Source: a bacterium
Lineage (GTDB): Bacteria; Zhuqueibacterota; Zhuqueibacteria; Oceanimicrobiales; Oceanimicrobiaceae
DNA: 38,158 bases
Direction of reading: 5' to 3'
NCBI GenBank assembly: GCA_046757025.1
Contig: JBHHXN010000031.1
Span: 1 to 38,158, forward strand
How positions within the stretch are numbered: position 1 is the first letter of the stretch; each line of letters opens with the position of its first letter. Below the pieces are notes generated by a model. It ran no database searches. It had not been told where the DNA came from and saw only the letters and a program-made list of their open reading frames with translations. Made by a program: the position numbers and the translations under genes. Positions 13,408-38,158 of this stretch are shown here, in pieces.

Positions 13408-13486
13408 AATAATCCGTCCTCAAATTGTTAATTTTATTAATTTGAAATTTGATATACAAAAAATTAGTTACAAAACTATCTATTTA

Positions 13487-13641
13487 GTGTCTGAACGAAA
13501 ACTACCCAATCTTCCCGAAGACCTCCTGGTTGAGGGTGAATTCCTGCTTAGCTCGGTGGAGCCTGTCCTGAGCTTTGTCGAAAGGACGCCTTCGCGAAGA
13601 GGTTTAGAAATCGTGCATTTTTCGAGTTTTCATTCAGACAC
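13487..13641. mobile_element. MITE-like element, family A copy 1, with 6-bp target duplication TATTTA and a 25-nt internal insertion
   Basis: Ends GTGTCTGAACGAAAACT and AGTTTTCATTCAGACAC (17-bp inverted repeat, 1 mismatch). TATTTA lies at 13481-13486 and 13642-13647. Homologous to 26417-26546. Confidence 0.8.
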
Positions 13642-14161
13642 TATTTATGGTTTAAAAAAGAGCGCTGGGCTTAAAGGCTTTTGCGTAAGTTGAGGTTTTA
13701 CTTAAGGCAGTGACGATATTAAATCTTTTGCTACGGTCCAACCTTTAAATGTGCAATTAACATGTTAAATTCCTGGGAACTCTTCTCAAAATAAAACTCT
13801 TTATTTTGAAGTTTGTTGCAGAGGCAGGAGCAGACTTAAAGTATATTTTATTTCACTTCACTCAATAACGGTCAACCCCAATTAAACGAATCATTTTGCT
13901 TTTAAATTACCCTAAAATCTATCACATTCAGTGAAATGATAACAAAAATACCACTAATTTATTCCAGAAGTGTCAGTCAGGTATCAATTTATTATTCGGT
14001 AAATTTAATCTCAACTGAAATTCACACATAATTCTTTAATAAAATTTCAATAGACTGCAGGTAAAATTGACAAGAATGGTTGACGGGAATAATAATCGTT
14101 GGGATTACTTGAATAGACCAGGTTTAACTTTTCACGAATGTAAAAAATAATATTTAATTTG

Positions 14162-20559: not shown

Positions 20560-23500
20560 TCATCTAACAATGGCTAATCTGCCAATTTTTTCATTTTGCA
20601 AGGTTCCGTTGGAGCCTTGTGACCTTGCAATGATCTTATATAAATACACACCATTCGCTGGCACATCGCCATCTTCGTCCCTTCCATCCCATTCTACCAT
20701 GTTAAAACCGCTGCGGGCAAACGGATATTCCAGTGTTCTGATCAATTGTCCGGATACGGTGTATATTTTGATTCGAACCTCGGCATCCAGATTTGAGATG
20801 AACGTGAAAGTCGTGTTCTCTGTGAACGGATTGGGGTAGTTCATGATGTCTTGCAGCACCAAACCCTCCTCATGAATAATCACCACTTCCACTGAAGCCG
20901 TTGTGGAGTTATTGGAATTGTCCCAGGCTTTGACCTCTAAAGTATGTCGGTCCTCGCCGTCAGAAGTGATACACGTAATAACTCTACCTCCCACGTCAAC
21001 TTCTTGAGGAAAATTTAAAGGCAATTTTACCGTTCCTCGCAGGTGACTTCCTTCATCAAACTCAAACAAGTCGGTTAAATCGATGCTACTGATTCCCTGA
21101 AATCGGTTCAATTCCGATAAACAGGTTTCTTCATCCGGATCGATTTTTAAAGTCAATTTGTGCCCGATTGCACCGGCGATGTTAATTCCGCTGACCGAAT
21201 CGACTAAATCCACCACCAATGTCACGTTCTCCCCTATTATATCGCCCGATGTAAAAGTTTCATAACCCTGAAAATAAATGCGCACCTCCGGCCCTCTGGT
21301 GTCCACCAGATTTGACGAAGAGCTGCTGACGGTGATGCTGTCTTTGACACCGACGCCGTCGATGGATTTATTTTCATCCCAGAAATAAGCGCTGACGCGC
21401 GCCAGTTTGCCGCCATAAGAAATATCTTTCGGTACGATAAATTTTGCCGTAAAACGGCCGTTTTGCACTGGCACGGTTCCTCGATAAATTGAGCTGCCCG
21501 GCAAAAAATATTCCTGCACTGAGCCCGCTTCCGGTACGTTCCGAACAAACTTTTTTGAGTCAAACGTGTTTATGAGGGCGGTGCCGTTAAAATCGCTCGC
21601 AAATTGTCCATTCTGCCTGACTTCGCCGGCAATTTCAATGGTGCTGAGCGCTAAAATGGAATCCGGCTGCAGCGCAGTAATTTTCGCTTCCAGCTTCGGC
21701 ATGGCCAGGCGCAAAGTGGGATCGCCATAGATGTGAAATTTTTCGTCGTTGGTGAGATTGCTGGTTCGGCTGCGAGCAGAAATAAATGCGGCGCCCAGAC
21801 GGTTCGTTTGACCAGTCGAGTTGAACAAATGATTATAATAAAACCGATTAAATCGGAAATTGGAATTTGAAAAAACCAGTCGCGCGGATGACAGGATGGC
21901 AATGGCGCCGCGATTTTCAGCCAACAGCAGTTCCTCCGCTTGGCTTTGTCTTTCCGGGTTATCGTAAAGCGCCCAGTCGCAGGTAGCGGCTACAAAAAAG
22001 ATCAACATATCGTGGTTTTGCACGCGATCGTTGTCCGATTTGTGAAAGACCACTTCGTGCGCCCATTGTGTGGAATTGCCGTGGCCGATAAAATTGACGA
22101 TAAGCGTCCCTTTATTCATTTGCTGAATCAGCGCTTCTTTCGCCGCGGGCTTGGTCACCCCGGCATTAGAGGCGCTGATCACCTTTGGAAATTCGGAAAG
22201 ATAAATCTTTTCCACATCAAAAAATCCGGGGATAGCGTTGCGATCCTCTGCAATGCTTTCGATCTGTTTAATGTGCACATCATCAGCCAAATTCGGCTTA
22301 CCGCCTCGCACCAATTCGTCGTCGCCTACCATGGTGATGGTGTTGCGCCAGTTATCGTACAAGGGATCGGTTTCATAGGCGATGATTTTATCCACCGCCA
22401 TCTTCGCTTCCGTATTCGATTGCACATTGATACGGCCGATGGCCAGATCCATGACGCGGTCTTCCCCCGAAATATACGTGTACCAGCTATCCATGGTACG
22501 GCTTTCCAACTCACGCAGCCGATCATTGGAATTCGACTGTAGCAGCTCATTGGTTTGAAAGGTGGGAATCCAATTATTGTCCCCACTGAAAATAATATTC
22601 TTGGGATCGTAATCGCCGTCGCCAAACAGCAAAACATAAGAGGGTTTCAGCGTCCAATTTTCGAAGGCAAATTTAAGATAGTTTCGTATGGCGCCCACAT
22701 CCATCAGCCCGCCTGAAAAATTGTTGTAGATATCCGAAATTCGTACCACTTCGGTGACCATGCGATTGTCCGGATTGAGAGTTTCACGTAATCCTTCCAG
22801 AGGCAGCGCGGCCGAATGAAAATCATCGTGGGTGATGATGATGTACTCGGCACCCGGTTCCACATTTCGAATGTCGGCGATCTCCGATCGTTCGAGACTT
22901 TCGATGGACTTATATTTGGCGGGATTCAATGCGATAAATCTTTTAGGTTGATCAGGTAATTGCGTCGTCGTGAACGTGATGCTGCCCTGGGATATTCTTG
23001 GTTCCGCAATTCTTTTGACGCGCTCAAACTGGCTGATATCGAACAATTCGATATCGTTGCCGGAGAAATTGCTGACTCGATAAGTCTGCTGACCGGCTTC
23101 GGGGATCAGCGTAAAAGTCAGCTCATCTTCCCGGGCGCGCAGCGGCGCTGTGTAAAAAAATTCGAACCAGTCCAGCAAAACCTGGCTGAAACTAGTCGGC
23201 GGCGTATAAGAAATCGTCAAAGTGTTGCTTTCGGAGCTCAAACTGGCGGGCGCGTTGAAGTTGAAATCTTCCACTCGCAGAACCAAATACTGCCCCTGTT
23301 CAGATGAAGATCCAAAAAATTGCCGGCTGCCGAGATCGGTGCCGTTCACGGAAAACGTAAATCGGTGATTGCCAGAGCTTTTCGAGGCCAGGCGGACTTT
23401 CAGCTCCACGGTGCTGGTTTCGTTTTGTGCGTTCAAATCCAAACCGTAGCTCTGGGTGCGGCTGTTGGCATCAAATTGCCGCCCGAAGAAATTGAGTCCT

Positions 23501-24708
23501 GATCGCAGCGGATTGTCGATCTCCTCTTCCAAAAAAGTCATGCCCTGGTAAACTTCACGCACGCTGCCACTTGCCGGGCCGGCGCTAACGGCTTTCATCC
23601 TGAGGCCGTTTTGTTCCCCCGCCAGAGCTAACCAGTAGATATTTTCTTTTTCGTAGTGATGGATGTAATGTGCAAAACTCTGTGTTCCGGCATCGTACTC
23701 CCAGCCGCTCACACCCCGGCCATAAAAGAGAATGTAATCGTCGCGGTCAAAGCGACCGTCGCCTCCGTCCACAATCAAGATGGCGTTTTCTACCAATCCT
23801 ACCGAGTGAGGCGCCGAAAGACTTTGCGGCAGCTCTTTTCCGCCGTTGTTATAAATTTGGATTTTCGCCGGATCGATTTCACTCAGATTCAGGTTATTGA
23901 TAGCGGACTCCAGAAATCGGCCGTCTATTTTGTAAATCCCTTCATCGCGAATGCGAAACTTGTAGAGAGTCGTATTTTGAAATGATTTCCTGGAATAGCT
24001 GGTTTTTTGAACCGAACGTTTGTGGGTGCGCCACCGAATGGCCTGAGAGTAATTCAACAGTAAGTCCTCATACATTTCTTCCTCTGCCCGTGAAATAACG
24101 GAAGCGGAAACGTTTGAAGCCGCCCGGCCACCCACAAAATCTAGTCTCAGCACAATTCGGTCATACTTGCGCACCTGTCTCGTACCCGGCAAAAACTGCA
24201 GACCCGCCACCTGAATCCTGACAATTTGCTGATGGCGAAAAAAAGCCGGTGCATCGATTTGCACCAAGTCTGATGGAAAATTTAGCGCTTTGCCATAAAT
24301 TTCGGCATTCAACTGGTACTCCATTTCCGGTCCACCGTCGCTCTGCTCGATTATGGGATACGGGGCCAAACGAGTGTTCTGGATGACTTCAAAATCGCTC
24401 TCAAGCACCTGGTAGTTCACGCGCGCTCCCTCAGGAATACCCAGAATCGCTACGTGATACGGAATTTGCGGTGCGCCCGGTTGATCTGCCAGATTAGCCG
24501 CAGAAAAATCGAGTTTTGTATGTTCCACCCCGTTGATCATCACGGATTCCGTCTGCCAGTTGGAAACAGAAAACTCCAGGGTCAAGCTGCGTTCAGCCGC
24601 GTTGACGATTCGAACGGTTTCGTCTTTTTTAACAGCGCTCTTCACGGGTGAGAAACCAGTTGAAATGCACCACAAAAACCAACAGATAAAGAGATATTTT
24701 AACTTCAT
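20560..24708 (-). CDS. porU: PorU-like C25 (gingipain-family) peptidase / type IX secretion sortase homolog
   Basis: Signal peptide, C25 propeptide-like N-terminus (GAPQIP), DYILFYG, YVLLFGDGDYD, IGRI, NFIGHG (catalytic His), AATC (catalytic Cys), YGDP, FIVPKDISY, KAWDNSNN, and a C-terminal NYPNPF...IKIYTVSG...WDGRD...NGVYLYK sorting-type domain. Confidence 0.85.
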   Translation of the reverse strand: MKLKYLFICWFLWCISTGFSPVKSAVKKDETVRIVNAAERSLTLEFSVSNWQTESVMINGVEHTKLDFSAANLADQPGAPQIPYHVAILGIPEGARVNYQVLESDFEVIQNTRLAPYPIIEQSDGGPEMEYQLNAEIYGKALNFPSDLVQIDAPAFFRHQQIVRIQVAGLQFLPGTRQVRKYDRIVLRLDFVGGRAASNVSASVISRAEEEMYEDLLLNYSQAIRWRTHKRSVQKTSYSRKSFQNTTLYKFRIRDEGIYKIDGRFLESAINNLNLSEIDPAKIQIYNNGGKELPQSLSAPHSVGLVENAILIVDGGDGRFDRDDYILFYGRGVSGWEYDAGTQSFAHYIHHYEKENIYWLALAGEQNGLRMKAVSAGPASGSVREVYQGMTFLEEEIDNPLRSGLNFFGRQFDANSRTQSYGLDLNAQNETSTVELKVRLASKSSGNHRFTFSVNGTDLGSRQFFGSSSEQGQYLVLRVEDFNFNAPASLSSESNTLTISYTPPTSFSQVLLDWFEFFYTAPLRAREDELTFTLIPEAGQQTYRVSNFSGNDIELFDISQFERVKRIAEPRISQGSITFTTTQLPDQPKRFIALNPAKYKSIESLERSEIADIRNVEPGAEYIIITHDDFHSAALPLEGLRETLNPDNRMVTEVVRISDIYNNFSGGLMDVGAIRNYLKFAFENWTLKPSYVLLFGDGDYDPKNIIFSGDNNWIPTFQTNELLQSNSNDRLRELESRTMDSWYTYISGEDRVMDLAIGRINVQSNTEAKMAVDKIIAYETDPLYDNWRNTITMVGDDELVRGGKPNLADDVHIKQIESIAEDRNAIPGFFDVEKIYLSEFPKVISASNAGVTKPAAKEALIQQMNKGTLIVNFIGHGNSTQWAHEVVFHKSDNDRVQNHDMLIFFVAATCDWALYDNPERQSQAEELLLAENRGAIAILSSARLVFSNSNFRFNRFYYNHLFNSTGQTNRLGAAFISARSRTSNLTNDEKFHIYGDPTLRLAMPKLEAKITALQPDSILALSTIEIAGEVRQNGQFASDFNGTALINTFDSKKFVRNVPEAGSVQEYFLPGSSIYRGTVPVQNGRFTAKFIVPKDISYGGKLARVSAYFWDENKSIDGVGVKDSITVSSSSSNLVDTRGPEVRIYFQGYETFTSGDIIGENVTLVVDLVDSVSGINIAGAIGHKLTLKIDPDEETCLSELNRFQGISSIDLTDLFEFDEGSHLRGTVKLPLNFPQEVDVGGRVITCITSDGEDRHTLEVKAWDNSNNSTTASVEVVIIHEEGLVLQDIMNYPNPFTENTTFTFISNLDAEVRIKIYTVSGQLIRTLEYPFARSGFNMVEWDGRDEDGDVPANGVYLYKIIARSQGSNGTLQNEKIGRLAIVR

Positions 24709-24726
24709 ATTTATTTGTGATAAAAC

Positions 24727-24900
24727 TTATTGAATGTTTTTTTCTTTAAGAAGAAAAATACAAAATAATCCGATGGCGATCACCACACTGTACATGAAAA
24801 GGAGAAATAACCGCGAGGGGTGATTAAAAAAAACTTCATAACCCAAACCTAAACTGCTAATGGCAATAAAAACAATACCGCGAACGGTGTACGCATCCAT
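24727..24900 (-). CDS. Small two-helix membrane protein, 57 aa, absent from the ORF track
   Basis: Manual translation MDAYTVRGIVFIAISSLGLGYEVFFNHPSRLFLLFMYSVVIAIGLFCIFLLKEKNIQ*. AGGT upstream of the ATG, two hydrophobic segments, stop codon 18 bp before porU. Confidence 0.65.
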   Translation of the reverse strand: MDAYTVRGIVFIAISSLGLGYEVFFNHPSRLFLLFMYSVVIAIGLFCIFLLKEKNIQ

Positions 24901-25171
24901 GGGAATCTACCTGATATAACATATTCAAAATCAATTATCTTCCCCTCCTGCCCAATGAAAATGAATTACCGAATATAAGCATTTTTTGTCAAACATGTAA
25001 ACGAAATTTTAAGGAATTATAAGATGCTACAGAAATCGGATTCAGGATTTGCCAAACCGACTCAAAAGATGCCATCCCCGATAGGTTCAGGATTCTGCAC
25101 GTGCTGAGGAAATTTCATAGAGAAGATAATTTAACCGAAATGAAATCCAGCAATCACACCACAACCATCAT

Positions 25172-25987
25172 TCATTCTTGCATGAACGCCGCTTCTTTAC
25201 GACAGGCTTTCTGATTTTTCAAGGATTCGTGCACGGCTTTCATGGCTTCAATGCTGTCCATCACGCGATTCATGATTTTTTGAGCGACTTCCCTTTTTTT
25301 GTGATTTCCGTAAAATTCAGAGAGGTCGAGAGGTTTGCCGTAATAAACATAAATCTTTTTGAACAGCCGCGGAATCACGGAACCGATGGGAAGCAGTTTA
25401 TCCATACCGTCGATGTAAACGGGAATGACCGTGGGGTTCGTTTCCAGAATTAACAACCCAGCGCCGCCGCGCGCTTTGCCAATGGAGCCATCCCGCGAGC
25501 GTGTGCCTTCCGGGAACAACGTCATGGTGCCGATTTTTAAGGCCTCAGCCATTTTGAAAATGGCGCCCACGTCTTTGCGGCCGCGTTTTATTCGGATGCA
25601 TTTCCAATTATCTGCAAGCCACGCCAGAATCGGCGTACGAAAAAAGTTTTCTTCCGCCGCCGGATTCCAGGGAATCACATACGGTCGTATAAGCGACATC
25701 GGGTAAAAAGCAAAAAGGCCGACTAAAAAACTGTCGATCATACTTTGATGATTCGACAGCAACAATGTGTTTCGCTTCTGCGGTACGTTTTTTTTCCCCT
25801 TCACCACGGTTCGATTTAGAAATTGAAAATAAATGTAGCCGATGGTGACGGATATGTTGGTGATGAGATAGTGTGTAAATGGCCAGGTTAATCTGAACAA
25901 CCAGCTGTGCTTGCGTCCAGCCACTATCTTCAATTCATTTTTACACAGATTAAAAACCATGACGATTTTTTTCAAAATGAATAGCAA
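25172..25987 (-). CDS. Lysophospholipid / 1-acyl-glycerol-3-phosphate acyltransferase (PlsC family)
   Basis: SNHQSMID (NHX4D) and FPEGTRSRDG motifs. Start uncertain, probably further downstream. Confidence 0.88.
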   Translation of the reverse strand: MLFILKKIVMVFNLCKNELKIVAGRKHSWLFRLTWPFTHYLITNISVTIGYIYFQFLNRTVVKGKKNVPQKRNTLLLSNHQSMIDSFLVGLFAFYPMSLIRPYVIPWNPAAEENFFRTPILAWLADNWKCIRIKRGRKDVGAIFKMAEALKIGTMTLFPEGTRSRDGSIGKARGGAGLLILETNPTVIPVYIDGMDKLLPIGSVIPRLFKKIYVYYGKPLDLSEFYGNHKKREVAQKIMNRVMDSIEAMKAVHESLKNQKACRKEAAFMQE

Positions 25988-26132
25988 TTATTTTCATAAA
26001 ATGCAACCAGAATATCACAAAAAAGAACGAATACAGACAACTTTTTGCGTTTTTATTCAACTTCGTGAGGGCTGTTTAATCGCGCAATTTTTATAACGGA
26101 AAACGTAAACCCGGGAGAGAAAGTTCCCCTTA

Positions 26133-26294
26133 GTGCTCCATTTCAGAAATGGTTGTAGGGTTCACAAGAGATAATAGCAGCTACCGATCTTCACCCTTTG
26201 ACTCCCGCTCAGGGTGAAGATCATGGTTTTCCGATTTTGAATTAGCACTCAGCATGAAGACAAGTACCCGACAATCAATTTTGAAATGGAATAC
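26133..26294 (+). mobile_element. MITE-like element, family B copy 1
   Basis: ~30-bp imperfect terminal inverted repeats GTGCTCCATTTCAGAAATGGTTGTAGGGT and ACCCGACAATCAATTTTGAAATGGAATAC; central 12-bp hairpin GATCTTCACCCT...AGGGTGAAGATC; homologous to the reverse complement of 36513-36673. Confidence 0.75.
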
Positions 26295-26416
26295 TTAGCC
26301 ACAAAAGCATAGAAAATTGCGTTGACGCGCCAGTGGCTGTTTCCGCAAACCGTCATTCAACGTCAGCAACAAGGATACGATCGGCAACGACATCCGCTTT
26401 GCTGAATCTCTACATG

Positions 26417-26546
26417 GTGTCCGAACAAACACGACCCTATCTTCGCGAAGTCCTCCTGGCCGAAGGTGATTTCCTGCTCAGCTCGATGGAATGCCGTCAC
26501 AAAGAAGTTTATAAATCGCGCATTTCTCTAATTTTCGTTCAGACAC
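26417..26546 (+). mobile_element. MITE-like element, family A copy 2 (lacks the 25-nt insert)
   Basis: Ungapped 130-nt alignment to 13487-13641 once 13561-13585 is removed (24 mismatches by hand count); ends GTGTCCGAAC and GTTCAGACAC. Confidence 0.78.
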
Positions 26547-26827
26547 AAAATAACTTCACCGTTACCGGTCCATGTCACTTCTTCTTTTGCCGACAATCAG
26601 GTGAGGGCAAAATTATCACAAATAAATGGCTTTGTCAAGCAATAAGTCAGGAGGATGGTGATGAAATCAAATAAACACGGTTGCTGTAGCGCAAACGAAA
26701 GGTTGGCTGGGAAATAAAAAAGGGGACAACTCAATCAGTGGTGTTTAAAAGGCGGTATAAACAGGCGTTTTCTGTGCAAAAAATGTCTGTTTCAAATAAT
26801 GTGTGCAACTTATTTTAATTTCGACGA

Positions 26828-27646
26828 TCAAGTCAATTGATCGAGAAACGGCGCAATTTTTTCGATGATTTCAGCGTGACGGGTACCGTTGCTGGCAACA
26901 AAGCCTTTGTCGTTGTACACGTTTTCTTTGTTATATTTTAACGGCTGGCCCCAACAGTCGGTGAGGGTTCCGCCCGCTTCTTGCAGGATGATTTCAGGAG
27001 CGCAGGTGTCCCATTCTTTGGTTTTCGAATTGGGATGCAAATAAAGGTCGCACTTTTTCTGCGCCAGCAAACCGACTTTTAAGCCCACACTTCCGGAGGC
27101 CACTTCCTTATGAATGCCCAGGGCTTCTTTCATCGTGTCCACCAGTTCCGCCCGATGCGACCGGCTTATGACCAACTTCAACTGGTCAATCTCAGTAACA
27201 TTTGAAACATGTAATTCCGATTTTTGGCCATTTTGAATCATGTACGCACCTTGGTTTCTTACGGCCCAATAAAAGATGGCTGAGGTCGGCTGATAAACCA
27301 GACCCAATACGGGGCGACCGTTTTCAACCAATCCAATCATGGCCGCAAACTGGCCGACTTTGTCGATGAATTCTTTGGTGCCGTCCATGGGATCCACTAC
27401 CCACACCCGGCTCTTCTGCAGTCGTTTGAAGTCATCTTTGGATTCTTCCGCTAAAATGGCATCATCCGGAAACTGCCGGGCTAGCTGTTCGGTAATAAAC
27501 GCATTGGATGCTTTATCTGCCTGTGTCACGGGCTCGCGTTCATTTTTTAATTCCACATCGTATTTTCGATGGTAAAAATCCAAGATTATCTGCCCTGCTT
27601 CTTTAATTATTTCAGTTGCCACATTCAGTTCTTCTGTCAGCATCAT
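26828..27646 (-). CDS. cysQ: 3'(2'),5'-bisphosphate nucleotidase CysQ / inositol monophosphatase family
   Basis: PVTQAD, ILAEES, WVVDPMDGTKEFI, SRSH, GSVGLK, EWDTCA. Start moved to the ATG at 27646 because it has an AAGGA RBS and the longer ORF start crosses a terminator. Confidence 0.88.
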   Translation of the reverse strand: MMLTEELNVATEIIKEAGQIILDFYHRKYDVELKNEREPVTQADKASNAFITEQLARQFPDDAILAEESKDDFKRLQKSRVWVVDPMDGTKEFIDKVGQFAAMIGLVENGRPVLGLVYQPTSAIFYWAVRNQGAYMIQNGQKSELHVSNVTEIDQLKLVISRSHRAELVDTMKEALGIHKEVASGSVGLKVGLLAQKKCDLYLHPNSKTKEWDTCAPEIILQEAGGTLTDCWGQPLKYNKENVYNDKGFVASNGTRHAEIIEKIAPFLDQLT

Positions 27647-27689
27647 TTCTATCCTTATGTAATTAAAAATGTTCCATCGCAATGATTTT

Positions 27690-27721
27690 AAAAAGCCTGT
27701 CCCCCTAAACGAGGAACAGGC
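27690..27721 (-). terminator. Intrinsic terminator after the TolB-like gene
   Basis: Minus strand GCCTGTTCCTC-gttta-GGGGGACAGGC-TTTTT. Confidence 0.7.
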
Positions 27722-27756
27722 CGAAGGGGCACAAACCACAAAAAAGGTTTTGAAAT

Positions 27757-28887
27757 TTACTCACTTGCTACACGAAGAAAATATTCACGGTCTAAATCGG
27801 CCCGTAAAATATCAAAGTTGTTGTTCATCAATCTGGTAAAAACAAAGCTGCGGCCGTCATTTGAAAATCTCGGCTCTCCTAAGTCACCGTTCACCCAATA
27901 AACCAATTCGGCGCCTTTAAGTAAAAGGTTTAATTTCCATAATTCTGCGGTGCCTTTTTCTGCATTCGCTTTTTGAAAATACAATTCAGTTGCAGTTGGA
28001 TTTAACACAAACTTTGGAAATGGCCTGATTTCCGCATCTGAATATAAAATTTCTTGTGATGCATTTTGCAAATCAATCCTTACTATAGAAAACAACCCCT
28101 CACTTTGCGGAAAACGAGCCTGTACATTGCTCACAAATCCAAGCGTGATAAAATGGCTTTCATCCAGCCAGATCACCGATGGCTGCCATTCCAAATCCGA
28201 ATAAGATTTCCAGCATTCTGTGCGAAATATTTCCTGTTCCATTCCATTCGATTGAATCAACGTAAACGTGACTCGCAGGGAACCGTCCGATTGCGTTCGT
28301 CGCAAAACCATCTGGAAAGTGTTTTTCGGGGAGGTCGTTCTGAATTCCGGTAACTGGCCCGCAGGTATTTCGCTCCGGCCCAGTATGCGGTAGCCTTCTG
28401 AAAGCGGCAAACCCGAAGACGACTCCAATAACACTTTTTCGCCGTTTAACAAACTTAGATTCCAGATTTCCCAATCGAATATGCTGCTTGCTAAATCGTC
28501 GTTGCTGGTAAACTGCACAGCAGTCGGCGATTTGAGCAAAAGCACGGATTGATCATCTGGTCGCACATTATAATCGATCACCCCCGTGGTCTCTAATGCG
28601 ATTTTATCGGAACCGTCCTGATTCACCATCACCAGTCGATAATCCCAGGGTTGGGGTGCGAAAGGCTTACCGACAAATTCCAGATACAGAATTCGACGGC
28701 CTTTTTGAATAAACCGGGGGTTGACTTCCATGATCCGGTTTGAATTTGTCACATTTGTAAAATGAAAATTAGCGTTGGGTCTCAGAGGTTGGGAATGAAG
28801 TTGCTGACCAAAAACGAGTACGGCCAGAGACAGAAGCGAAACGAGCGCTCTTAACATGTTTTGCAGTATCTCCATATTTTTTTGCAT
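27757..28887 (-). CDS. Exported hypothetical protein with TolB/PD40-like propeller repeats
   Basis: Signal-like N-terminus, AAGGAGG RBS, PRFIQKGRRILY, DGSDK, EPRFSNDGRSFVFT...FDILRADL. Confidence 0.7.
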   Translation of the reverse strand: MQKNMEILQNMLRALVSLLSLAVLVFGQQLHSQPLRPNANFHFTNVTNSNRIMEVNPRFIQKGRRILYLEFVGKPFAPQPWDYRLVMVNQDGSDKIALETTGVIDYNVRPDDQSVLLLKSPTAVQFTSNDDLASSIFDWEIWNLSLLNGEKVLLESSSGLPLSEGYRILGRSEIPAGQLPEFRTTSPKNTFQMVLRRTQSDGSLRVTFTLIQSNGMEQEIFRTECWKSYSDLEWQPSVIWLDESHFITLGFVSNVQARFPQSEGLFSIVRIDLQNASQEILYSDAEIRPFPKFVLNPTATELYFQKANAEKGTAELWKLNLLLKGAELVYWVNGDLGEPRFSNDGRSFVFTRLMNNNFDILRADLDREYFLRVASE

Positions 28888-29011
28888 TTGAAAACCCCTC
28901 CTTGTCCTATCATATTAAGACAACTTTTTCACTAAAATCCTCTCACACTTTTTTAATAAAGCAATTTTTTTTGAGTTTTATTTCCAGCAAATTCTAAGGA
29001 TATTTTTAATT

Positions 29012-29027
29012 AGCAATTTCAATGCCA
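29012..29027 (-). promoter_or_regulatory. Sigma-54 (-24/-12) promoter for the TolB-like gene
   Basis: Minus strand TGGCATTGAAATTGCT (GG-N10-GC), 125 bp upstream of the ATG. Confidence 0.75.
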
Positions 29028-29227
29028 GTATTTTTTGCACTCTGTCACTTGCATTTAACCATTTAAAATATAGTAAATTAAGAGTACACTAAATTTCTTG
29101 CAAATGCATCACGGATCAGAAAAAATTGCCTAGTGCGTACAAAGTTTACAGTCATTTCACCACACCGGTCTTTTACTGTGGATTGAATGCGCCGAAAAGA
29201 AAAGATATTTAGTTGGTTTGTATTGGC

Positions 29228-30595
29228 TCAAATCAACCTCAGGGTTTTGTAATGATTGAGCTTGTTGTGCAGAGTTTTGAGACTGATGCCCAGAATTTGC
29301 GCGGCGTGGGTTTTGTTGTTATTGACATATTCCAACGTTTTCAGAATCAGCTCTCTTTCGGACACTTCCAGGGAAGTCCCAATCGGGATGTGAATATCAA
29401 TTTTACTGCCATCGGGATTGATAATTCTTTTGGGCAAATCCGAAACCTCAATCGTGTCTCCCTTACACAGCACGATGGCGCGTTCGATGGTATTTTTTAA
29501 TTCACGCACATTTCCAGGCCATTGGTAGCGATTCAAAATTTCCAGTGATTGTTGTGAAAAGTGCATCACGGGCTTTTGGTTCTTTTCGCTGAAGTATTGA
29601 CGAAATTCATTCATCAACAGCGGAATGTCGCCGGTTCTATCTCGTAGCGGCGGCAGCTCAATTTCCACAACACACAGCCGGTAATACAGGTCATCGCGCA
29701 GCAGTTTTTCCTCCAGAGCTTCTTCGAGATTTTTGTTGGAGGCCGAAATTACCCGCACATCCACCTCAATTTCATGTTTGCCACCCAGGCGCCGAAATCT
29801 TCTTTCTTCCAGAGCTCGCAACAACTTAGCCTGAATTTCGATGGGCATTTCGCAGACTTCATCTAAAAATAACGTGCCATTGTCCGCCAGCTCAAAGCAA
29901 CCGGCCTTTTCTTTAAGTGCCCCGGTAAAGGCTCCCAGTTCATGACCAAACAGCTCGTTCTCCAGAATTTCCATTGGAAACGCCGAGCAGTTCACCGCCA
30001 CAAACGGTCCATCACAGCGGTTACTGGCTCTGTGAATAGCTCGCGCCACCAGCTCTTTGCCGGTACCGCTTTCACCGGTGATGATAACGCTGGTAGTGGT
30101 ATCGGCCACCGCTTCGATGAGTTTATAAATTTCCTGCATTTCGTTGCTTTGTCCGATCAAATCATCGAAGTGGGTAAGATTTTTAAGCTGCTGCTCCAAC
30201 CTCTTGTGTGAAACCACCAGACTGTAGTGCTTTAATGCCTTGATAATAATGGTTTTCAATCTGTATGGATCAACCGGTTTCTCGATGTAATCATACGCGC
30301 CTTTTTTGATGGCTTCCACTGCGCTGGAGACAGTGCCATTGCCGCTGAAGATGATGGTTTCGGTGAGTATTTCGTTTTCCTTCATTCGGCTCAACAACTC
30401 AATGCCATCGATTTCCGGCAAGGTTAAATCCACCAGGATGACGGCAAATTTATCGGTTACCAGCTTTTGCAGGGCATCCCGCCCACTCGATGTGGATTCT
30501 ACCTCGTATCCTTCGGAGGTTAAAAGCTCTTTAAGCTGTTCAACTATCAAATTATCATAGTCCGCGATAAGAATTTTACTATTATTGAACGTCAT
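29228..30595 (-). CDS. Sigma-54-dependent response regulator (REC-AAA+-Fis HTH; NtrC/AtoC/ZraR family)
   Basis: Receiver domain (VILVDLTLP...KP), GESGTGKE, ELFGHELGAFTGA, LFLDEV, WPGNVREL, NKTHAAQILGISLKTLHNKL. Start moved to the ATG at 30595. Confidence 0.95.
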   Translation of the reverse strand: MTFNNSKILIADYDNLIVEQLKELLTSEGYEVESTSSGRDALQKLVTDKFAVILVDLTLPEIDGIELLSRMKENEILTETIIFSGNGTVSSAVEAIKKGAYDYIEKPVDPYRLKTIIIKALKHYSLVVSHKRLEQQLKNLTHFDDLIGQSNEMQEIYKLIEAVADTTTSVIITGESGTGKELVARAIHRASNRCDGPFVAVNCSAFPMEILENELFGHELGAFTGALKEKAGCFELADNGTLFLDEVCEMPIEIQAKLLRALEERRFRRLGGKHEIEVDVRVISASNKNLEEALEEKLLRDDLYYRLCVVEIELPPLRDRTGDIPLLMNEFRQYFSEKNQKPVMHFSQQSLEILNRYQWPGNVRELKNTIERAIVLCKGDTIEVSDLPKRIINPDGSKIDIHIPIGTSLEVSERELILKTLEYVNNNKTHAAQILGISLKTLHNKLNHYKTLRLI

Positions 30596-30649
30596 TTGAA
30601 GTTTGAGCCAGTTGAGGTTTGTCAGGATTGCAGTTCTAACCGGGGTCGA

Positions 30650-30665
30650 TGCGAAAACTATGCCA
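30650..30665 (-). promoter_or_regulatory. Sigma-54-type promoter upstream of the activator gene itself
   Basis: Minus strand TGGCATAGTTTTCGCA (GG-N10-GC), 55 bp upstream of the ATG at 30595. Confidence 0.6.
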
Positions 30666-30874
30666 CCAGCAGGACACAAAGCCATTTTTTAAATTTATAT
30701 AAATATCGAGTGATTTACTCTATAAAATCTACACTTCAATCAGGTAAATTAAATGAATTAATTACATCCAGCGCCTGTGAAATGTTTATATGTGTTTCGA
30801 TGTGAAACAAATGTGCCTTTTTGAACAAAGCGATCTAAGCCAGGGAATCCACTTTCATAGTTTTTATCCAAATA

Positions 30875-31017
30875 ACTTTCTTAGAGCCTGCCCTGAACCT
30901 GGCGAAGTGATTAACTCCGCAACGGCAAAATCTATTCCCCTCAAGCTATTTTATTTTCTCAGGTTAAGTGACGTATGATTCTTCGCCCGCCCGCTCAGCA
31001 GGATCGCTCAGAATGAC
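30875..31017. repeat. Decayed GTCATTCTGAG-type REP doublet containing a hairpin mini-element
   Basis: The right unit is GATTCTTCG...GCTCAGAATGAC (30977-31017). 30884-30931 resembles 37173-37219, including GCCTGCCCTGAACCTGGCGAAG. Confidence 0.6.
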
Positions 31018-31189
31018 CATATTGGATGAAGGTTGCGTTAAAATGGATAGCCGTACGTTTTAAAGTGCAAATGACTGTGGTAGATGGCGAGTTACCTGAG
31101 GGAATTTATTGGTGAGAAATTTACAAAAAAGATGAACCGGCAAAAAATTCTGCAAGAAGGTCGATTACTTTCACCTTGGCATTTTTTCC

Positions 31190-34100
31190 TCAATTCAATT
31201 GGCTCTCCGCACTCCATTTTTCAACTAAACTCAAAATATCCTTGATCATGAACGGTTTGGCGATGTAATCATCACAGCCGGCTAACAGCACTTTTTCGCG
31301 ATCTCCTTTCATGGCTTTAGCCGTCATGGCAATAATCGGAATGTTTTTGAAGTTCTCATCCGCTTTCAATCGCCGGGTTGCTTCATAACCGTCCATGCCG
31401 GGCATCATGATATCCATTAAAATCAAATCCGGCTTGATGGCCTCGGCTTGTCTGATGGCGTCCTGTCCTTCGTTGGCAAAATATACGCGATACCCTTGCA
31501 CATCCAGAATATACTTGATGGCATATTGCGTATCCAGATCATCGTCCACGATCAAAACCCGCGGCATGGTTTGGCTAGCATCATCGCTTTTACCAGAAAA
31601 GTTCAGCAATCTTTTACTGGCGAGTTTTTTAATATTGAAAAATAACGGCAGATCTAAAACCGCTCTTTTCTTTTTTGAGCTAATTTCGAGATTTTTCAAG
31701 ATGGTCACCAGGTTTTGAGGCTTGAATGGCTTAACCAAATATTCAGTCACTCCCATATCAAATGCCCGTTCTTGCTCAGACAAGATGGACGTGACCACGA
31801 TGGGAATGTCTTTGGTGGCGTCATCCTTTTTAAGGGATTCCAAAACCTCCCAGCCGCTGGTTTCTGGCATGATCAAATCCAGAGTGATGGCGAAAGGATG
31901 AAATTGTTTTGCCAATTCCACGACATCTTCGCCATTTTGTGGGAATACGATCTGGAAGCTGTTCTCATGCAAAAACTGGCACATAATGTAGATGGCTTCT
32001 TTTTCATCATCTACCACCAAAATGGTTTTTTTGTTTTTGTCCAGCTGTTCACGGTCGTCGTCAAGGTCTAATTCATCGTCGAATTTTTGCTCGACAAAGC
32101 TGACCGGGGCAGCGGTTTCCAGCTCTTCCGTGACCGCTTCGGTTTTGGTCTGAAATGGAATGATCAGGGTGAATGTGGAGCCTTTACCCAGCTTGCTTTC
32201 TACCGAAACCGAGCCACCAATGATGGCCAAGACATTGCGTGTAATGGACAACCCCAATCCGGTTCCGCCAAACTTTCTGGAATCGGAGCTGTCGATTTGC
32301 TGAAATTCGTTGAAGATTTCATCTAATCTGTCTTTGGGAATGCCAATGCCAGTATCGGAAATTTTTATCTGCAGTACGGAGGCACTTTTTAAGGCCGCTG
32401 CTACATGGATACGTCCCTTGCGGGTAAATTTCACGGCGTTGCTGAGCACATTGACCAGCGCTTTGGTCAATTTATCTTGATCGGTGTGAATGTAGTCCGG
32501 TACATCCTCAGAAAATTCATGATCCAGCTTCAGGTTTTTCTCGATGCAAAGGGGTCGAATGTGTTCAATGGTTTCCTCAATCACGGCACGAATGGGAATC
32601 ACCGAGTACCTGAGCTCAGCGCGGCCGGACTCGATTTTAGAGAGATCCAGAATGTCGTTTATCAAGGTCAATAAATTGCGCCCGCTGCGTTGAATGATCT
32701 GCAGTTGCTTGTTTTGTTCCGCGTTTAAATCACCGGAAATACCTCGAATGAGTATATCTGAAATTGTGATGATGGCGTTCAGCGGCGTGCGCAGCTCATG
32801 CGAAACATTGGCCAAAAACTCGGTTTTCAATTTATTGGCCTTCTCCAGCTCCCTGGCCTTTTCTGCGGCCTCTTTGAACAGCCGCGCATTTTCAATGGCA
32901 ATGGCCGCTCGGTCTGCCAGCTCCTGCGCCAATTTAAGATCGCTTTCTTTATATTTTCGTCTGGAATGACAAACCAGATAGACCATAATACCGATGATAC
33001 GGTCGCGTACTCGCAGAGGCAGCAGCATCAGCGAGGAGATATCGTATTTTTTTTGAACGTAGTAAAACGGCGTTTCGCTAAACTCGTTGATCGATTCAGA
33101 AAAAGGTTTGGAAGTCCGCAGCCCGTTGCCGGTAAAGGCCACATTCCCGATGAGGCCCTCGCCAATGCGGCTGGGAAATTCTTCATATCCTTTGAGAAAA
33201 AGATCCACAATTGCCTGGCTTTCGTGGTAAGATGCGTACGGCTTTAAAATATCGCCGGTGTCTTCCAGCAAAAGTAAACTGCAAAAATCACCGATGGCTT
33301 TGCCGCCCTTGTTCACGATGGCCGTCAACACATCTTTCATCTTCAAACTGGAATGAAAAATCTGGCTGATTTCAGCAAGCAGCGTGGCATGTTTCTCATT
33401 CTCTTTTTGCACTTGAAAAAGCCGGGCATTTTCAATAGCCAGAGCGGCGTTGTCAGCAAAAATTTCCAGATCGCGAATTTTATTTAAAGTGGGCTTTTTG
33501 TGGTCATCCGGCGCATCCACGCTAATGACCCCCAAAACTTTGTCTTTTGTGCGGATGGGTACCAACAAGGCGTCCAGCGCGTGCCATTCATCCTCAGCGC
33601 TCTTCCCCAGCTCTGTGTACAGAGAAAACGGCGTATTTTCATGAATCAGATTCGCGTTGTGCGGCACATAATAGGAATTGCTGATCTGGTACTCGGGATT
33701 GAAATACTTTTCAGTGTGTTTGAAAGGAATGTCACCCCAATTCATCACTTCTTCAACCTGGCCAGGTTCCAGCCCGGCCGTAGCCACTACGCGGGAGGTT
33801 TGTCTTTTGTAATCGCGTAGAGAAATGATCGCCTTTTTCCAACCAAGCGCCTGCACCGCTTCACAAATGCGGTTTAATATCACATCGATATCCACATTCA
33901 GTCGAATCTCTTCCCCGATTTCCAGAAGCCTGGCCAGCTGATTGACCTTTTTTTGAAGTTCCTCTGTCCTTTTCTTGACCTTAAACTCTAAATTTTTCGC
34001 ATACTCCTTTAGCTCGTTTTGCATGCGCTTGTATTCAGAAATATCTCGCCCCACCGCCATGGCCCCGATACGGCGATTGTAACGGTCAAATAATGGCCGG

Positions 34101-36043
34101 GCGTTCCAACTGCACAAAATCGATTTGCCGTCTTTGGTGTTGATCTGCGATTCAAAGTCTTTAATTTCTACGCGCATGGCCGGGCCATAATTTTTTTCCA
34201 ATCTCTTCAGATCGTCAAAAAAGATCGGCAGATGTTGTTTTGTGAGCTCCTCGGCACGGTATTGCAGCAGCTTGCGGCCATATTCGTTTATGAACGTGCA
34301 ATTGGCATCGTTATCCACCACCAGCAGAATATCCGACATGCCGGAGATCAAAGTCTCATAATACGAAGTCGTGGCCTGCAGCTCGCTGGTTTTATTGGTG
34401 AGCTCTTCTGCGTATTCTTCCAGGCTCCGTTCCAGCGTCTTTCGGCGGGTGACGTCTTTTTCAATCCAGAGATAATTGACGGTCTGACCTATCTCCTGTT
34501 TGATGGGTACCACCGACAGTTCACCGATGATGGCGCTGCCGTCTTTTCGTTTCGTGTCAAATTCCCCCCGCCAGATTTTGCCTTCGCTAATGGTGCTCCA
34601 GATATTTTTATGCACGTTTTCACTGCGCTGGTCGTATTTCAAGATATCGGTTTTATGGCCGATAAGCTCTGATTTTGCATAACCGGTCATGATCGTGAAG
34701 GTCCGATTCACATAGGTGATTTGTCCCTCCAGATCCGTAATCAGGATGCCGTCGGTGGAATTTTCAATGCTTTGTTTGAAAATCTCGATGTCTTTTGTCT
34801 TCTCCTTGACCAGCTTCTCCAATCCCAGCTCGATCCGTTTCCTCTCAGTCAAATTGGTTACCACCGATTGGATGCCGGAGTAATCGCCACGGGCATCGAT
34901 TATGGGCACGGTGTTTATCAGTACCGGCACCTTTTCACCGTCCCGAGACAGCATTTCCAGCTCCAACTGCTCTGCGGTGCGGTAACCATTGTGCATGTTT
35001 TCCAGACCGAGCTTTTCATAATTTGCTGGATCAAAAAATACCGAAATATGTTTACCCAGCAAGGTCTCGGTATCGTAATGCAGCATGTCCGCAATGGCCT
35101 GATTGGTAAAAATCAAGGTGCCTCTTTTGTCGGTGACGATGAATCCGTCGGCCATTTTTTCCACCAGGTTCTGGAAGGTTTTTTCACTTTTTTCCAGATC
35201 TTTTTTTGACTTTTCCAGAGACTCGCGCAGCTCTTTTTCAATTTTCAGAAATCGCAGTTGATCGGCAAAAATACCCACCAGAAATGACGTAATAAACAAA
35301 CCTTTCAGGGCGTGCCCAAAATCAAATGAAACATCGAACAGCGTATTCCAGAAACTGAGGTAAACATTGGTGAACACCCCAAACACAGAGGCCACAATAA
35401 ACCAGAAATAGAGCGCCCTGCGATCTTTATGAAATCGCCACAACAACATTGCCGCCGCGCAGAAGATCAAACAGGCTGAAAATAGATCCAGACCCTTTTT
35501 TAGCAGCGTGGTGTGGTCCTGCTGGTAAAGAATTGGCGGTAAAAAATTGAACAGAGAAACCACAATAAAAAATACAAATGCCAGCGCATTCAGGTAGATT
35601 AACGAGATGTTGCGAAAGGTGGGCTGCAACATCGGTTTGTTGATATTGAAAATCCCGATGAGAAAATAAACCGAAAATAACATTCTGCCGATTATTTCAA
35701 ATGCCAGACCCGTGTTGACGGAAGGCGGCAGCCAAGCGATATCATGGAATCCCGGGAAAGCAAAACTCTGAAAGATTTGGAAAATGACAAAAGTTAGAAA
35801 AGCCAAACCAAAAAACAAAAACTCTTTGGTGCGCTGCAGGTGAAATCTTCGTAGGCAAATAAAAAACAAACAAATCCCGATGTACGCCACGAAGTATTCC
35901 AGAAGGGCGTGTCGTTCGGGCAGATATTTCTGGTTTTGCGCCAAACCAGAAATGATGGGGATGAGATACGTTAGAATGACAACGATAAGCCCGATGGCAA
36001 AGTAACTGACTATGGGCGAAAAAAATGACTTGCGGGAAGGCAT
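31190..36043 (-). CDS. Hybrid sensor histidine kinase: membrane sensor (MASE3-like), 3 PAS, 2 GAF, HisKA, HATPase, 2 receivers
   Basis: Multiple TM segments in the first ~260 aa; PAS starts MADGFIVTD, STDGILITD and MSDILLVVD; GAF ends ALAIENARL and AIAIENARL; FLANVSHELRTPL, NVLSNAVKFT, DTGIGI, GGTGLGL; receivers ITLDLIMP and ILMDIMMP. Confidence 0.93.
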   Translation of the reverse strand: MPSRKSFFSPIVSYFAIGLIVVILTYLIPIISGLAQNQKYLPERHALLEYFVAYIGICLFFICLRRFHLQRTKEFLFFGLAFLTFVIFQIFQSFAFPGFHDIAWLPPSVNTGLAFEIIGRMLFSVYFLIGIFNINKPMLQPTFRNISLIYLNALAFVFFIVVSLFNFLPPILYQQDHTTLLKKGLDLFSACLIFCAAAMLLWRFHKDRRALYFWFIVASVFGVFTNVYLSFWNTLFDVSFDFGHALKGLFITSFLVGIFADQLRFLKIEKELRESLEKSKKDLEKSEKTFQNLVEKMADGFIVTDKRGTLIFTNQAIADMLHYDTETLLGKHISVFFDPANYEKLGLENMHNGYRTAEQLELEMLSRDGEKVPVLINTVPIIDARGDYSGIQSVVTNLTERKRIELGLEKLVKEKTKDIEIFKQSIENSTDGILITDLEGQITYVNRTFTIMTGYAKSELIGHKTDILKYDQRSENVHKNIWSTISEGKIWRGEFDTKRKDGSAIIGELSVVPIKQEIGQTVNYLWIEKDVTRRKTLERSLEEYAEELTNKTSELQATTSYYETLISGMSDILLVVDNDANCTFINEYGRKLLQYRAEELTKQHLPIFFDDLKRLEKNYGPAMRVEIKDFESQINTKDGKSILCSWNARPLFDRYNRRIGAMAVGRDISEYKRMQNELKEYAKNLEFKVKKRTEELQKKVNQLARLLEIGEEIRLNVDIDVILNRICEAVQALGWKKAIISLRDYKRQTSRVVATAGLEPGQVEEVMNWGDIPFKHTEKYFNPEYQISNSYYVPHNANLIHENTPFSLYTELGKSAEDEWHALDALLVPIRTKDKVLGVISVDAPDDHKKPTLNKIRDLEIFADNAALAIENARLFQVQKENEKHATLLAEISQIFHSSLKMKDVLTAIVNKGGKAIGDFCSLLLLEDTGDILKPYASYHESQAIVDLFLKGYEEFPSRIGEGLIGNVAFTGNGLRTSKPFSESINEFSETPFYYVQKKYDISSLMLLPLRVRDRIIGIMVYLVCHSRRKYKESDLKLAQELADRAAIAIENARLFKEAAEKARELEKANKLKTEFLANVSHELRTPLNAIITISDILIRGISGDLNAEQNKQLQIIQRSGRNLLTLINDILDLSKIESGRAELRYSVIPIRAVIEETIEHIRPLCIEKNLKLDHEFSEDVPDYIHTDQDKLTKALVNVLSNAVKFTRKGRIHVAAALKSASVLQIKISDTGIGIPKDRLDEIFNEFQQIDSSDSRKFGGTGLGLSITRNVLAIIGGSVSVESKLGKGSTFTLIIPFQTKTEAVTEELETAAPVSFVEQKFDDELDLDDDREQLDKNKKTILVVDDEKEAIYIMCQFLHENSFQIVFPQNGEDVVELAKQFHPFAITLDLIMPETSGWEVLESLKKDDATKDIPIVVTSILSEQERAFDMGVTEYLVKPFKPQNLVTILKNLEISSKKKRAVLDLPLFFNIKKLASKRLLNFSGKSDDASQTMPRVLIVDDDLDTQYAIKYILDVQGYRVYFANEGQDAIRQAEAIKPDLILMDIMMPGMDGYEATRRLKADENFKNIPIIAMTAKAMKGDREKVLLAGCDDYIAKPFMIKDILSLVEKWSAESQLN

Positions 36044-36070
36044 CCTGTTTCCCTTAACATAAAACCAAAA

Positions 36071-36086
36071 AGCAATTCATAAACCA
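36071..36086 (-). promoter_or_regulatory. Possible sigma-54-type promoter for the hybrid kinase
   Basis: Minus strand TGGTTTATGAATTGCT (GG-N10-GC with a perfect TTGCT and a weaker -24 box), 28 bp upstream of the ATG. Confidence 0.45.
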
Positions 36087-36673: not shown

Positions 36674-36679
36674 TCCGAT

Positions 36680-37063: not shown

Positions 37064-37115
37064 AATTTTATTTCAACTTTTTTGACTTTGTAATTTAATG
37101 AAACGTTTCCAACTA

Positions 37116-37363
37116 TTGTCTGAAAGAAAACCCCCTATTTTGACATTTTGAGGAGTCCTTCGACGTTGCTCAGAGCTTGACCTGAACCTGGCGAAGGGAT
37201 AAATTCCACGACGAATAATCGCATGTATCTCAGATTACTAAAATGCAAAAGTGGTGAATTCGTGCAGAGGGTTCGCTCCTTGAACAAACAGACTCCGAAG
37301 GAAAAGATTCTTCGGTCTCCCGGGTAGCGGAATTCCTCAGAATGACACTTTCTGTCCAGACAC
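37116..37363. mobile_element. MITE-like element with family-A-type ends, 6-bp target duplication CAACTA, carrying a GTCATTCTGAG-type REP doublet and nested mini-elements
   Basis: Ends TTGTCTGAAAGAAA and TTTCTGTCCAGACAC. CAACTA lies at 37110-37115 and 37364-37369. Internal TGACATTTTGAGGA...TCCTCAGAATGACA. Confidence 0.72.
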
Positions 37364-37382
37364 CAACTAACTGCATATTTTC

Positions 37383-37781: not shown

Positions 37782-37823
37782 AATTTCCTCCTTGTTTAAA
37801 GTTTGTTAGTAATACTCTAATTA

Positions 37824-37968
37824 GTCCATCCGGAATCGTCATTCCCGAATGCTCCCTGCTTAAAACATGCAGGGACAAGCTCATCGGGAATCTCATGCCT
37901 AATGGATCAATGGATTCCCGATTAAAGATTGCGGGAATGACAAAAAAAGGTTCCTTACGGATGGACAC
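37824..37968. mobile_element. MITE-like element with GTGTCC-type ends, 6-bp flanking repeat TAATTA, carrying a CGTCATTCCCG REP doublet
   Basis: Ends GTCCATCCG and CGGATGGACAC. TAATTA lies at 37818-37823 and 37969-37974. Internal units CGTCATTCCCG...CGGGAATC and GATTCCCG...CGGGAATGAC. Confidence 0.72.
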
Positions 37969-38112
37969 TAATTACATGCGAATTTTTTAAATAAAAATAA
38001 CTCAAGTTTCGTAGCAGTGTAATCAATGGTTTCTAACGCATAATTATTAACCTGAATTCAAATAATTCTTTACACAAATAGTTAGTGATTGACCGAAAAG
38101 TCCATATTTCTA

Positions 38113-38157
38113 CACCTTGAGCCCTTCGACAAGCTCAGGATAAACTGCGTCGAAGGG
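38113..38157. repeat. Nested CCCTTCGAC...GCTCAGG hairpin mini-elements at the window edge
   Basis: CACCTTGAG[CCCTTCGACAAGCTCAGGATAAAC]TGCGTCGAAGGG; CCCTTCGAC and GTCGAAGGG form a perfect 9-bp inverted repeat. Confidence 0.7.
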
Positions 38158-38158
38158 T

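What the first reader, a model, noticed from the sequence alone, without database searches (positions are those of the whole stretch)
13481..13647. One MITE shell (GTGTC...GACAC ends, 6-bp YANNTA target duplication) carries three unrelated cargos
Seen: three elements have related ends and exact 6-bp flanking direct repeats: TATTTA (13487-13641), CAACTA (37116-37363) and TAATTA (37824-37968). A fourth copy (26417-26546) has the ends but non-matching flanks. The interiors are unrelated: a long CTTCGCGAAG hairpin, a GTCATTCTGAG-type doublet and a CGTCATTCCCG-type doublet. No transposase is in the window. Inference: a trans-acting DDE-type transposase with a YANNTA preference moves non-autonomous shells that have captured REP doublets, linking two normally separate repeat systems. 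I cannot assign the IS family.
Basis: partly seen in the sequence, partly recalled or inferred. Interest (0 to 1): 0.75.

Follow-up and report, generated by a model that had tools for sequence, protein, structure and literature searches.

The report
Transposon shells carrying Ssn hairpin doublets
The flagged repeats are real miniature transposons with the ends and 6-base target duplications of ISNCY-family insertion sequences, and most carry paired DNA hairpins of the kind cut by Ssn nucleases, which likely spread through this genome by riding in the ends of several unrelated transposon families.

Summary
Largely confirmed, with corrections. The genome holds at least 174 such MITEs; 69 of 174 have exact 6-bp duplications (17 expected), target TAWWTA, and five have single-hexamer empty paralogous sites. 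There is not one shell but three related end types, all matching full-length ISNCY elements (NF033593; ISRm17-like) in relatives; this genome keeps only a 3' transposase remnant. 93 of 174 enclose a head-to-head CGTC-REP/SRM doublet, the target type of Ssn GIY-YIG nucleases. The flagged element itself (13487-13641) does not: it and the 'fourth copy' form a 57-member family with a weakly folding interior. The wider result: 115 of 154 SRM doublets in the genome sit inside matched IS-type ends (ISNCY, IS1182, IS66, a likely IS4 type and others), and ISNCY-shelled hairpins turned up in 41 assemblies of many phyla. Both components are known; the coupling was not found in my paper searches, beyond an unexplained remark by Di Nocera 2013. 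This scan noted the ISNCY ends (e1-949082) and an SRM doublet in two MITEs in another genome (e1-5450234) before. How capture happens is inferred, not shown.

The parts
13481..13486 (.). Left copy of the 6-bp target duplication (TATTTA)
13487..13641 (.). 155-bp MITE with A-type ISNCY ends; member of the 57-copy family F0 (131/155/179-bp forms); interior is a weak imperfect hairpin, not an SRM doublet
13562..13585 (.). Optional ~24-bp block (CTGAGC...GTCGAAG type) that separates the 155-bp from the 131-bp form; resembles an arm of the F3/F6 doublet
   Evidence: sequence against short forms
13642..13647 (.). Right copy of the duplication (TATTTA)
26417..26546 (.). Decayed short-form F0 MITE, same family as 13487-13641; flanks no longer match
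37110..37115 (.). Left duplication copy (CAACTA)
37116..37363 (.). 248-bp MITE with decayed A/B-type ISNCY ends enclosing a decayed GTCATTCTGAG-type SRM doublet (about 37142-37346); related to family F5
37364..37369 (.). Right duplication copy (CAACTA)
37818..37823 (.). Left duplication copy (TAATTA)
37824..37968 (.). 145-bp MITE with C-type ISNCY ends (left end two bases short) enclosing a CGTCATTCCCG-type SRM doublet (37837-37942); family F1
37969..37974 (.). Right duplication copy (TAATTA)
38085..38158 (+).

Best explanation
These are non-autonomous miniature elements with the ends and 6-bp TAWWTA duplications of ISNCY-family (NF033593) insertion sequences, likely moved in trans by that family's DDE transposase, and most enclose a head-to-head pair of SRM/CGTC-REP hairpins that likely spread as passengers. 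Shown: the ends, the duplications, empty paralogous sites, matching autonomous elements in relatives, the identity of the cargo, and the same arrangement with IS1182, IS66 and other ends. Inferred: the doublets descend from SRM-ssn-SRM cassettes or their gene-less derivatives; one came to lie inside an IS, the IS interior was lost up to 15-70 bp from each end, and the short composite was then amplified by the transposase. Speculative: Ssn nicks just outside each hairpin would start those deletions. The expansion looks mostly past, since no intact ISNCY gene was found in the assembly.
For: 69 of 174 exact 6-bp repeats vs 17 shuffled; middle bases identical in 67 of 80 elements with TANNTA on both sides. 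19 of 22 back-to-back end pairs are exactly 6 bp apart. Single-hexamer empty copies for five elements, e.g. C11:52206-52349 (94% over 87 bp) and C253:176-306 (93% over 84 bp). 14 full-length ISNCY elements in relatives (1.79-2.02 kb) carry A-, B- or C-type ends; 5 of the 11 with complete flanks have exact TANNTA duplications. Own genome: a 3' NF033593 fragment (E 1e-29) followed by an A/B-type end at C83:13870, 68% identical over 100 aa to the B-ended element L056. Cargo matches the published NTS motif class; 83 of 110 ssn loci have such tags on both sides. 115 of 154 doublets have matched inward IS-type ends, 2 outward, 35 +/- 4 when flanks are re-paired. IS66-ended SRM-ssn-SRM cassettes (C129:9742-10204, exact 8-bp duplication) and a shorter gene-less form (C90:17474-17739) coexist. 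An intact ssn lies inside decayed ISNCY ends in L228.
Against: No transposition or strain-level empty site was seen. Only 2 of 110 ssn loci lie in a full IS shell, and none of 16 autonomous ISNCY elements carries a convincing subterminal SRM, so the proposed intermediate was not caught. The largest family (57 of 174), which includes the flagged element, has no doublet, so the doublet is not needed for success. End patterns for the census were drawn from the same flanks, which inflates 115 of 154. 105 of 174 duplications are imperfect.
Confidence: 0.8

Rival explanations
1. The doublets move on their own (REPIN-like, through Ssn nicking) and land in existing MITEs, so the shells are targets and not vehicles.
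For: SsnA cuts a few bases upstream of the hairpin, which in a head-to-head doublet is both outer edges. The same doublet type occurs in ISNCY and TAACATT shells (89% over 95 bp) and in ISNCY and TAGTAG shells. Unshelled doublets surround the intact ssn at C173.
Against: Copies of a family share shell, arms and spacer and have different duplicated flanks, so the unit copied is the whole element. No doublet-free version of the F1-F7 shells was seen among the 174 elements. This route may explain the first capture but not the amplification.
Confidence: 0.12
2. Cargo passes between shells by nesting: a doublet-bearing MITE of one IS family inserts into a MITE of another and later loses its inner ends.
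For: Nested insertions are seen directly: ISNCY in IS66 shell (C11:52150-52422), TACGG in ISNCY (C180:597-981), IS66-ssn cassette in ISNCY (C28:25998-26833).
Against: No inner-end remnants were evident in the family consensus arms (by eye). It is compatible with the best explanation and addresses only how capture repeats.
Confidence: 0.2
3. The mover is an IS630-type (TA duplication) or an IS5-type enzyme with look-alike ends, and the 6-bp repeat is only target preference.
For: An IS5 element (NF033580, L036) has a GTGTCTGACCGAAAA end; TA flanks nearly all ends.
Against: L036 has a 3-bp TTA duplication, and 0 of 174 elements show 3-bp duplications; the variable middle bases match in 67 of 80; ISNCY elements have both the ends and the 6-bp repeat.
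Confidence: 0.04

Closest known systems
ISNCY-family insertion sequences, NCBIfam NF033593 (ISRm17, ISRle10, ISRtr6, ISMlo5; ISDol1 group from memory) and MITEs derived from IS ends
   Same: GTG-start terminal inverted repeats of about 15 bp, TA...TA target, 6-bp duplication (7 bp for ISRm17), non-autonomous derivatives.
   Different: The interior is not deleted IS sequence beyond the first 15-30 bp; in 93 of 174 it is a foreign hairpin doublet.
CGTC-tagged REPs (Di Nocera et al. 2013, PMC3733652) and NTS/SRM targets of Ssn nucleases (Chenal et al. 2025, PMC11893778)
   Same: GTCAT-tagged oriented hairpins, head-to-head dimers, association with small GIY-YIG genes.
   Different: Those papers describe no dedicated transposase. 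Here most dimers are enclosed in DDE-type ends with target duplications. Di Nocera noted H. neapolitanus CGTC-1 dimers inside 41-bp palindromes but did not call them IS ends.
REPINs with RAYT transposases (PMC3116915, PMC3337134; seen as search listing and abstract start only)
   Same: Non-autonomous REP doublets amplified in trans.
   Different: The likely mover is a DDE enzyme acting on outer ends, not an HUH enzyme acting on the hairpins; none of the 3 Y1 transposase matches in the genome is flanked by these SRMs.
Integron mobilization units and passenger-carrying MITEs (as summarised in PMC3184786)
   Same: IS ends moving unrelated DNA in trans.
   Different: Single short element; the passenger is another selfish repeat, occasionally the ssn gene.

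Membership tests
MITE | Short, non-coding, multi-copy, terminal inverted repeats | tested here: met
   174 paired elements of 77-385 bp in 8 families of 3 or more
MITE | Target site duplication above chance | tested here: met
   69 of 174 vs 17.1 +/- 3.5
MITE | Empty site with one target copy | tested here: met
   Five elements in paralogous repeats; orthologous empty sites not found
MITE | Mobilisation in trans shown experimentally | not testable with these tools
   needs a transposition assay
ISNCY (NF033593)-dependent element | Same ends as autonomous elements above the model cut-off | tested here: met
   A: L053, L057; B: L056; C: L070
ISNCY (NF033593)-dependent element | Same target and duplication length | tested here: met
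   5 of 11 autonomous elements with exact TANNTA
ISNCY (NF033593)-dependent element | Intact partner transposase in the same genome | tested here: not met
   Only a 3' fragment on C83; the assembly is 94.8% complete in 374 contigs, so absence is not shown
ISDol1 group of ISNCY | ISfinder group assignment, 6-7-bp duplication | tested here: inconclusive
   ISRm17-type hits at about 25% identity and 7-bp duplication; the group name and its 6-7-bp trait are recalled; no held paper confirmed them
CGTC REP / SRM doublet | GTCA-tagged oriented hairpins in head-to-head pairs | tested here: met
   93 of 174 elements, including the families of 37116 and 37824
CGTC REP / SRM doublet (flagged element 13487-13641) | GTCA-tagged hairpins at both sides | tested here: not met
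   0 of 57 F0 members have both tags; weak folding
CGTC REP / SRM doublet | Cognate ssn gene flanked by such hairpins | tested here: met
   Intact 98-aa GIY-YIG gene at C173 and broken copies, all hairpin-flanked; CDD cd10448 itself was not searched
CGTC REP / SRM doublet | Cleavage by Ssn as single-stranded DNA | not testable with these tools
   needs a nuclease assay
REPIN/RAYT | RAYT gene flanked by the same REPs | tested here: not met

The most novel reading that the evidence does not exclude
DDE transposon ends are a general vehicle for CGTC-REP/SRM doublets, the repeats that seemed to lack a transposase: at least three named and several unnamed IS families captured them independently in one genome, and Ssn nicking at the outer edges of a doublet is what trims an IS down to a MITE. 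Ssn would then be a MITE-making enzyme and its cassette would occasionally travel inside IS ends.
Probability: 0.3. Interest if true: 0.72.

Novelty: new variant of a known kind. Interest (0 to 1): 0.5.

Why it matters
Di Nocera 2013 concluded that CGTC REPs lack a dedicated transposase and asked whether other transposases move them; Chenal 2025 proposed that SRM-ssn-SRM is a mobile element but showed only nuclease activity. Here three quarters of the doublets of one genome lie in IS ends with family-specific target duplications, and the ISNCY version recurs across phyla. This gives a concrete, testable route for their spread. It also questions the default view that prokaryotic MITE interiors are plain IS deletions. 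No effect on the host was shown.

Tried and rejected
Rfam: no match in the window. The five DDE_Tnp_1 matches in the genome have none of these ends. Viral-contig scans for the ends gave 14 and 18 loci, mostly chance matches plus IS5-type elements; one for the TACGG end gave 0. Contigs of four runs from one study laid on 24000-38158 showed no joint that skips an element exactly, among 15 of 35 joints displayed; no RNA holder listed. No IS66 transposase in this assembly. No relative scanned carried the TACGG, TAACATT, GTGCTCC, GACTT or TAGTAG ends exactly; IS4 elements with an 11-of-15 similar end and a 9-bp duplication are the best lead for TACGG. Promoter and terminator counts at 36900-38158 equal chance. 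The origin of the F0 interior was not found: whole-length matches occur only in G013, inside the same ends. My first loose census put 52 doublets under ISNCY; six belonged to other shell types, mostly IS1182, and the count was corrected to 46. Paper searches found no description of REP/SRM doublets inside IS-derived MITEs; subscription journals and supplements were not seen. No structure prediction was run.

Full report
Observation. The window is contig C31 of a 5.96-Mb assembly in 374 contigs. The three elements and their exact flanking hexamers are present at the stated coordinates, and the fourth has unmatched flanks. BLAST shows each belongs to a multi-copy family. A scan for three end motifs gave 578 ends, of which 348 pair into 174 elements and 230 stay unpaired (decayed or cut by contig ends). 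Exact 6-bp direct repeats flank 69 of 174, against 17.1 +/- 3.5 after re-pairing flanks; other lengths show no excess. Among 80 elements with TANNTA on both sides, the middle two bases agree in 67, so the duplication is 6 bp and not a TA duplication in a preferred context. The target logo is TAWWTA, and 19 of 22 back-to-back end pairs are separated by exactly one hexamer. Reconstructed empty sites match uninterrupted paralogous repeats with a single hexamer for five elements. These are paralogues, not orthologues; four public runs of one study showed no strain-level empty site.

There are three end types. A and B mix freely (32 hybrids), C seldom (4). 13487 and 26417 are long and short forms of one family, F0 (57 members). 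Its interior folds weakly (z -0.79 and +1.85; median -1.5 over 8 members) and never has SRM tags on both sides. It also occurs with the same ends in G013. The other two cargos are head-to-head hairpin doublets, as described. A fifth element starts at 38085.

The mover. The five DDE_Tnp_1 matches in the genome lack these ends. The ISNCY model NF033593 found a C-terminal fragment on C83 with an A/B-type end about 180 bp past its stop. In 167 genomes of the phylum, 16 have a match above the cut-off. Of the 30 loci returned, 14 gave both ends: 1.79-2.02-kb elements with A-, B- or C-type termini; 5 of the 11 with complete flanks have exact TANNTA duplications and the other 6 have one or two mismatches. 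Thirteen aligned transposases keep invariant D161, D375 and E426 and score weakly against IS5 and IS1182 models, consistent with a DDE enzyme. Named relatives at about 25% identity are ISRm17, ISRle10, ISRtr6 and ISMlo5; the ISRm17 copy examined has a GTG-start end of the same pattern and a 7-bp duplication. That this is the ISDol1 group is recalled, not confirmed. A tblastn with 16 full-length transposases found only the C83 fragment in this assembly. Nearest-neighbour identities of 88% (F0) to 96% (F2, F3, F6) suggest bursts of different ages.

The cargo. 93 of 174 elements have GTCA-type tags near both ends, 14 near one, 57 are F0 and 10 others have none. These tags and hairpins match the NTS/SRM motif bound and cut by Ssn nucleases (passages and sections 8 and 10 of PMC11893778) and the CGTC REPs of PMC3733652 (passages). 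The genome has an intact 98-aa GIY-YIG gene among unshelled doublets (C173) and several broken copies. Among 110 related loci, 83 have SRM tags on both sides of the gene and 2 lie in a full IS shell: L228 (decayed ISNCY ends) and L283 (GTAA ends, exact 8-bp duplication).

The coupling is general. Of 154 head-to-head doublets away from contig edges (13 at edges were dropped), 115 have the same IS-type end facing inward on both sides, 2 facing outward, 35 +/- 4 after re-pairing flanks, and 16 of 3000 random positions pass. By type: ISNCY 46, IS1182 24, TACGG 17, IS66 11, TAACATT 8, others 9. Each has its own duplication length: 8 bp (6 of 25 vs 0.3), 9 bp (17 of 26 vs 0.8), 7 bp (9 of 14 vs 0.7), 4 bp (36 of 174 loosely paired vs 4.9). 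The IS1182 and IS66 ends were matched to autonomous elements in relatives. The motifs came from these same flanks, so 115 is not an independent estimate; the orientation control and the duplications are the safeguards. A scan of one genome per species for an ISNCY end followed by an SRM tag stopped at its limit with 116 stretches; the 80 listed come from 41 assemblies labelled KSB1, Calditrichaceae, Desulfobacterales, Chloroflexota, Bacteroidota, Fibrobacterota, Latescibacterota, Gammaproteobacteria and others. 41 of 80 gave a partner end, 37 within 400 bp, and 24 of those 37 have exact hexamers against 6.9 +/- 2.0.

Mechanism. Shown: the unit that was copied is end-doublet-end, with a target duplication set by the ends. 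Inferred: transposases acting in trans amplified it. How capture occurs is open. The tags lie a median 15-70 bp from the ends depending on the shell, and autonomous ISNCY elements carry no subterminal SRM. My preferred reading is that a doublet or SRM-ssn-SRM cassette entered an IS and the IS interior was deleted up to it. IS66-ended cassettes with a broken ssn (463 bp) and a gene-less 266-bp form coexist here. SsnA cuts a few bases upstream of its hairpin, which would put nicks at both outer edges, but nothing here tests that step. Nesting of one MITE in another, seen three times, is a second possible route.

Against this reading. No intermediate ISNCY element with both transposase and doublet was found; shelled ssn genes are rare; the largest family lacks a doublet; no movement was observed.

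Comparison and novelty. MITEs, ISNCY elements, CGTC REPs and Ssn are all described. Nine paper searches and term look-ups in PMC3184786, PMC10969869 and PMC11602168 (passages only) found no account of REP doublets inside IS-derived MITEs. [quoted passage not shown] Earlier notes of this scan report the ISNCY ends in this genome and a doublet inside two MITEs in another genome; both were read after my own result. I rate this a new variant of known kinds, of moderate interest because it offers a testable answer to how CGTC/SRM repeats spread.

Noticed in passing
window 26133-26294 and 36513-36673: Two MITEs of another family (GTGCTCCATTTC ends, 3-bp TTA-type duplication) enclosing a TCACCCT/TCATGCTGAG-type doublet; about 20 copies in the genome; partner transposase not found.
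   Followed up: partly
window about 30780-31055: Decayed TACGG-ended element with an SRM arm; the family has 9-bp duplications and may be IS4-dependent.
   Followed up: partly
G000 C28:25998-26833: ISNCY MITE interrupted within one hairpin by an IS66-ended cassette carrying a broken ssn gene.
   Followed up: yes
G000 C129:9742-10204, C28:34307-34769: Two 463-bp IS66-ended SRM-ssn-SRM cassettes share the same internal stop, so the cassette was likely copied after the gene broke.
   Followed up: partly
L228 (G018:C484) and L283: Intact ssn genes enclosed in ISNCY and IS66-like ends.
   Followed up: partly
families F0, F1, F3 genome-wide; window 13562-13585: Optional 23-28-bp hairpin blocks give length ladders (131/155/179, 121/147, 121/144); how they insert is unexplained.
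   Followed up: no
G000 C73:22291-22411, C271:3579-3700: ISNCY shells with a different inverted-repeat cargo (GCGTCCTCGCCTG-like), possibly RAYT-type REPs (type recalled, untested).
   Followed up: no
L036 2220-3151: IS5 element with an end almost identical to the A/B type but a 3-bp duplication: convergent or shared end sequence between IS5 and ISNCY.
   Followed up: partly
window 20560-24708: PorU-type type IX secretion sortase above the NCBIfam cut-off.
   Followed up: no
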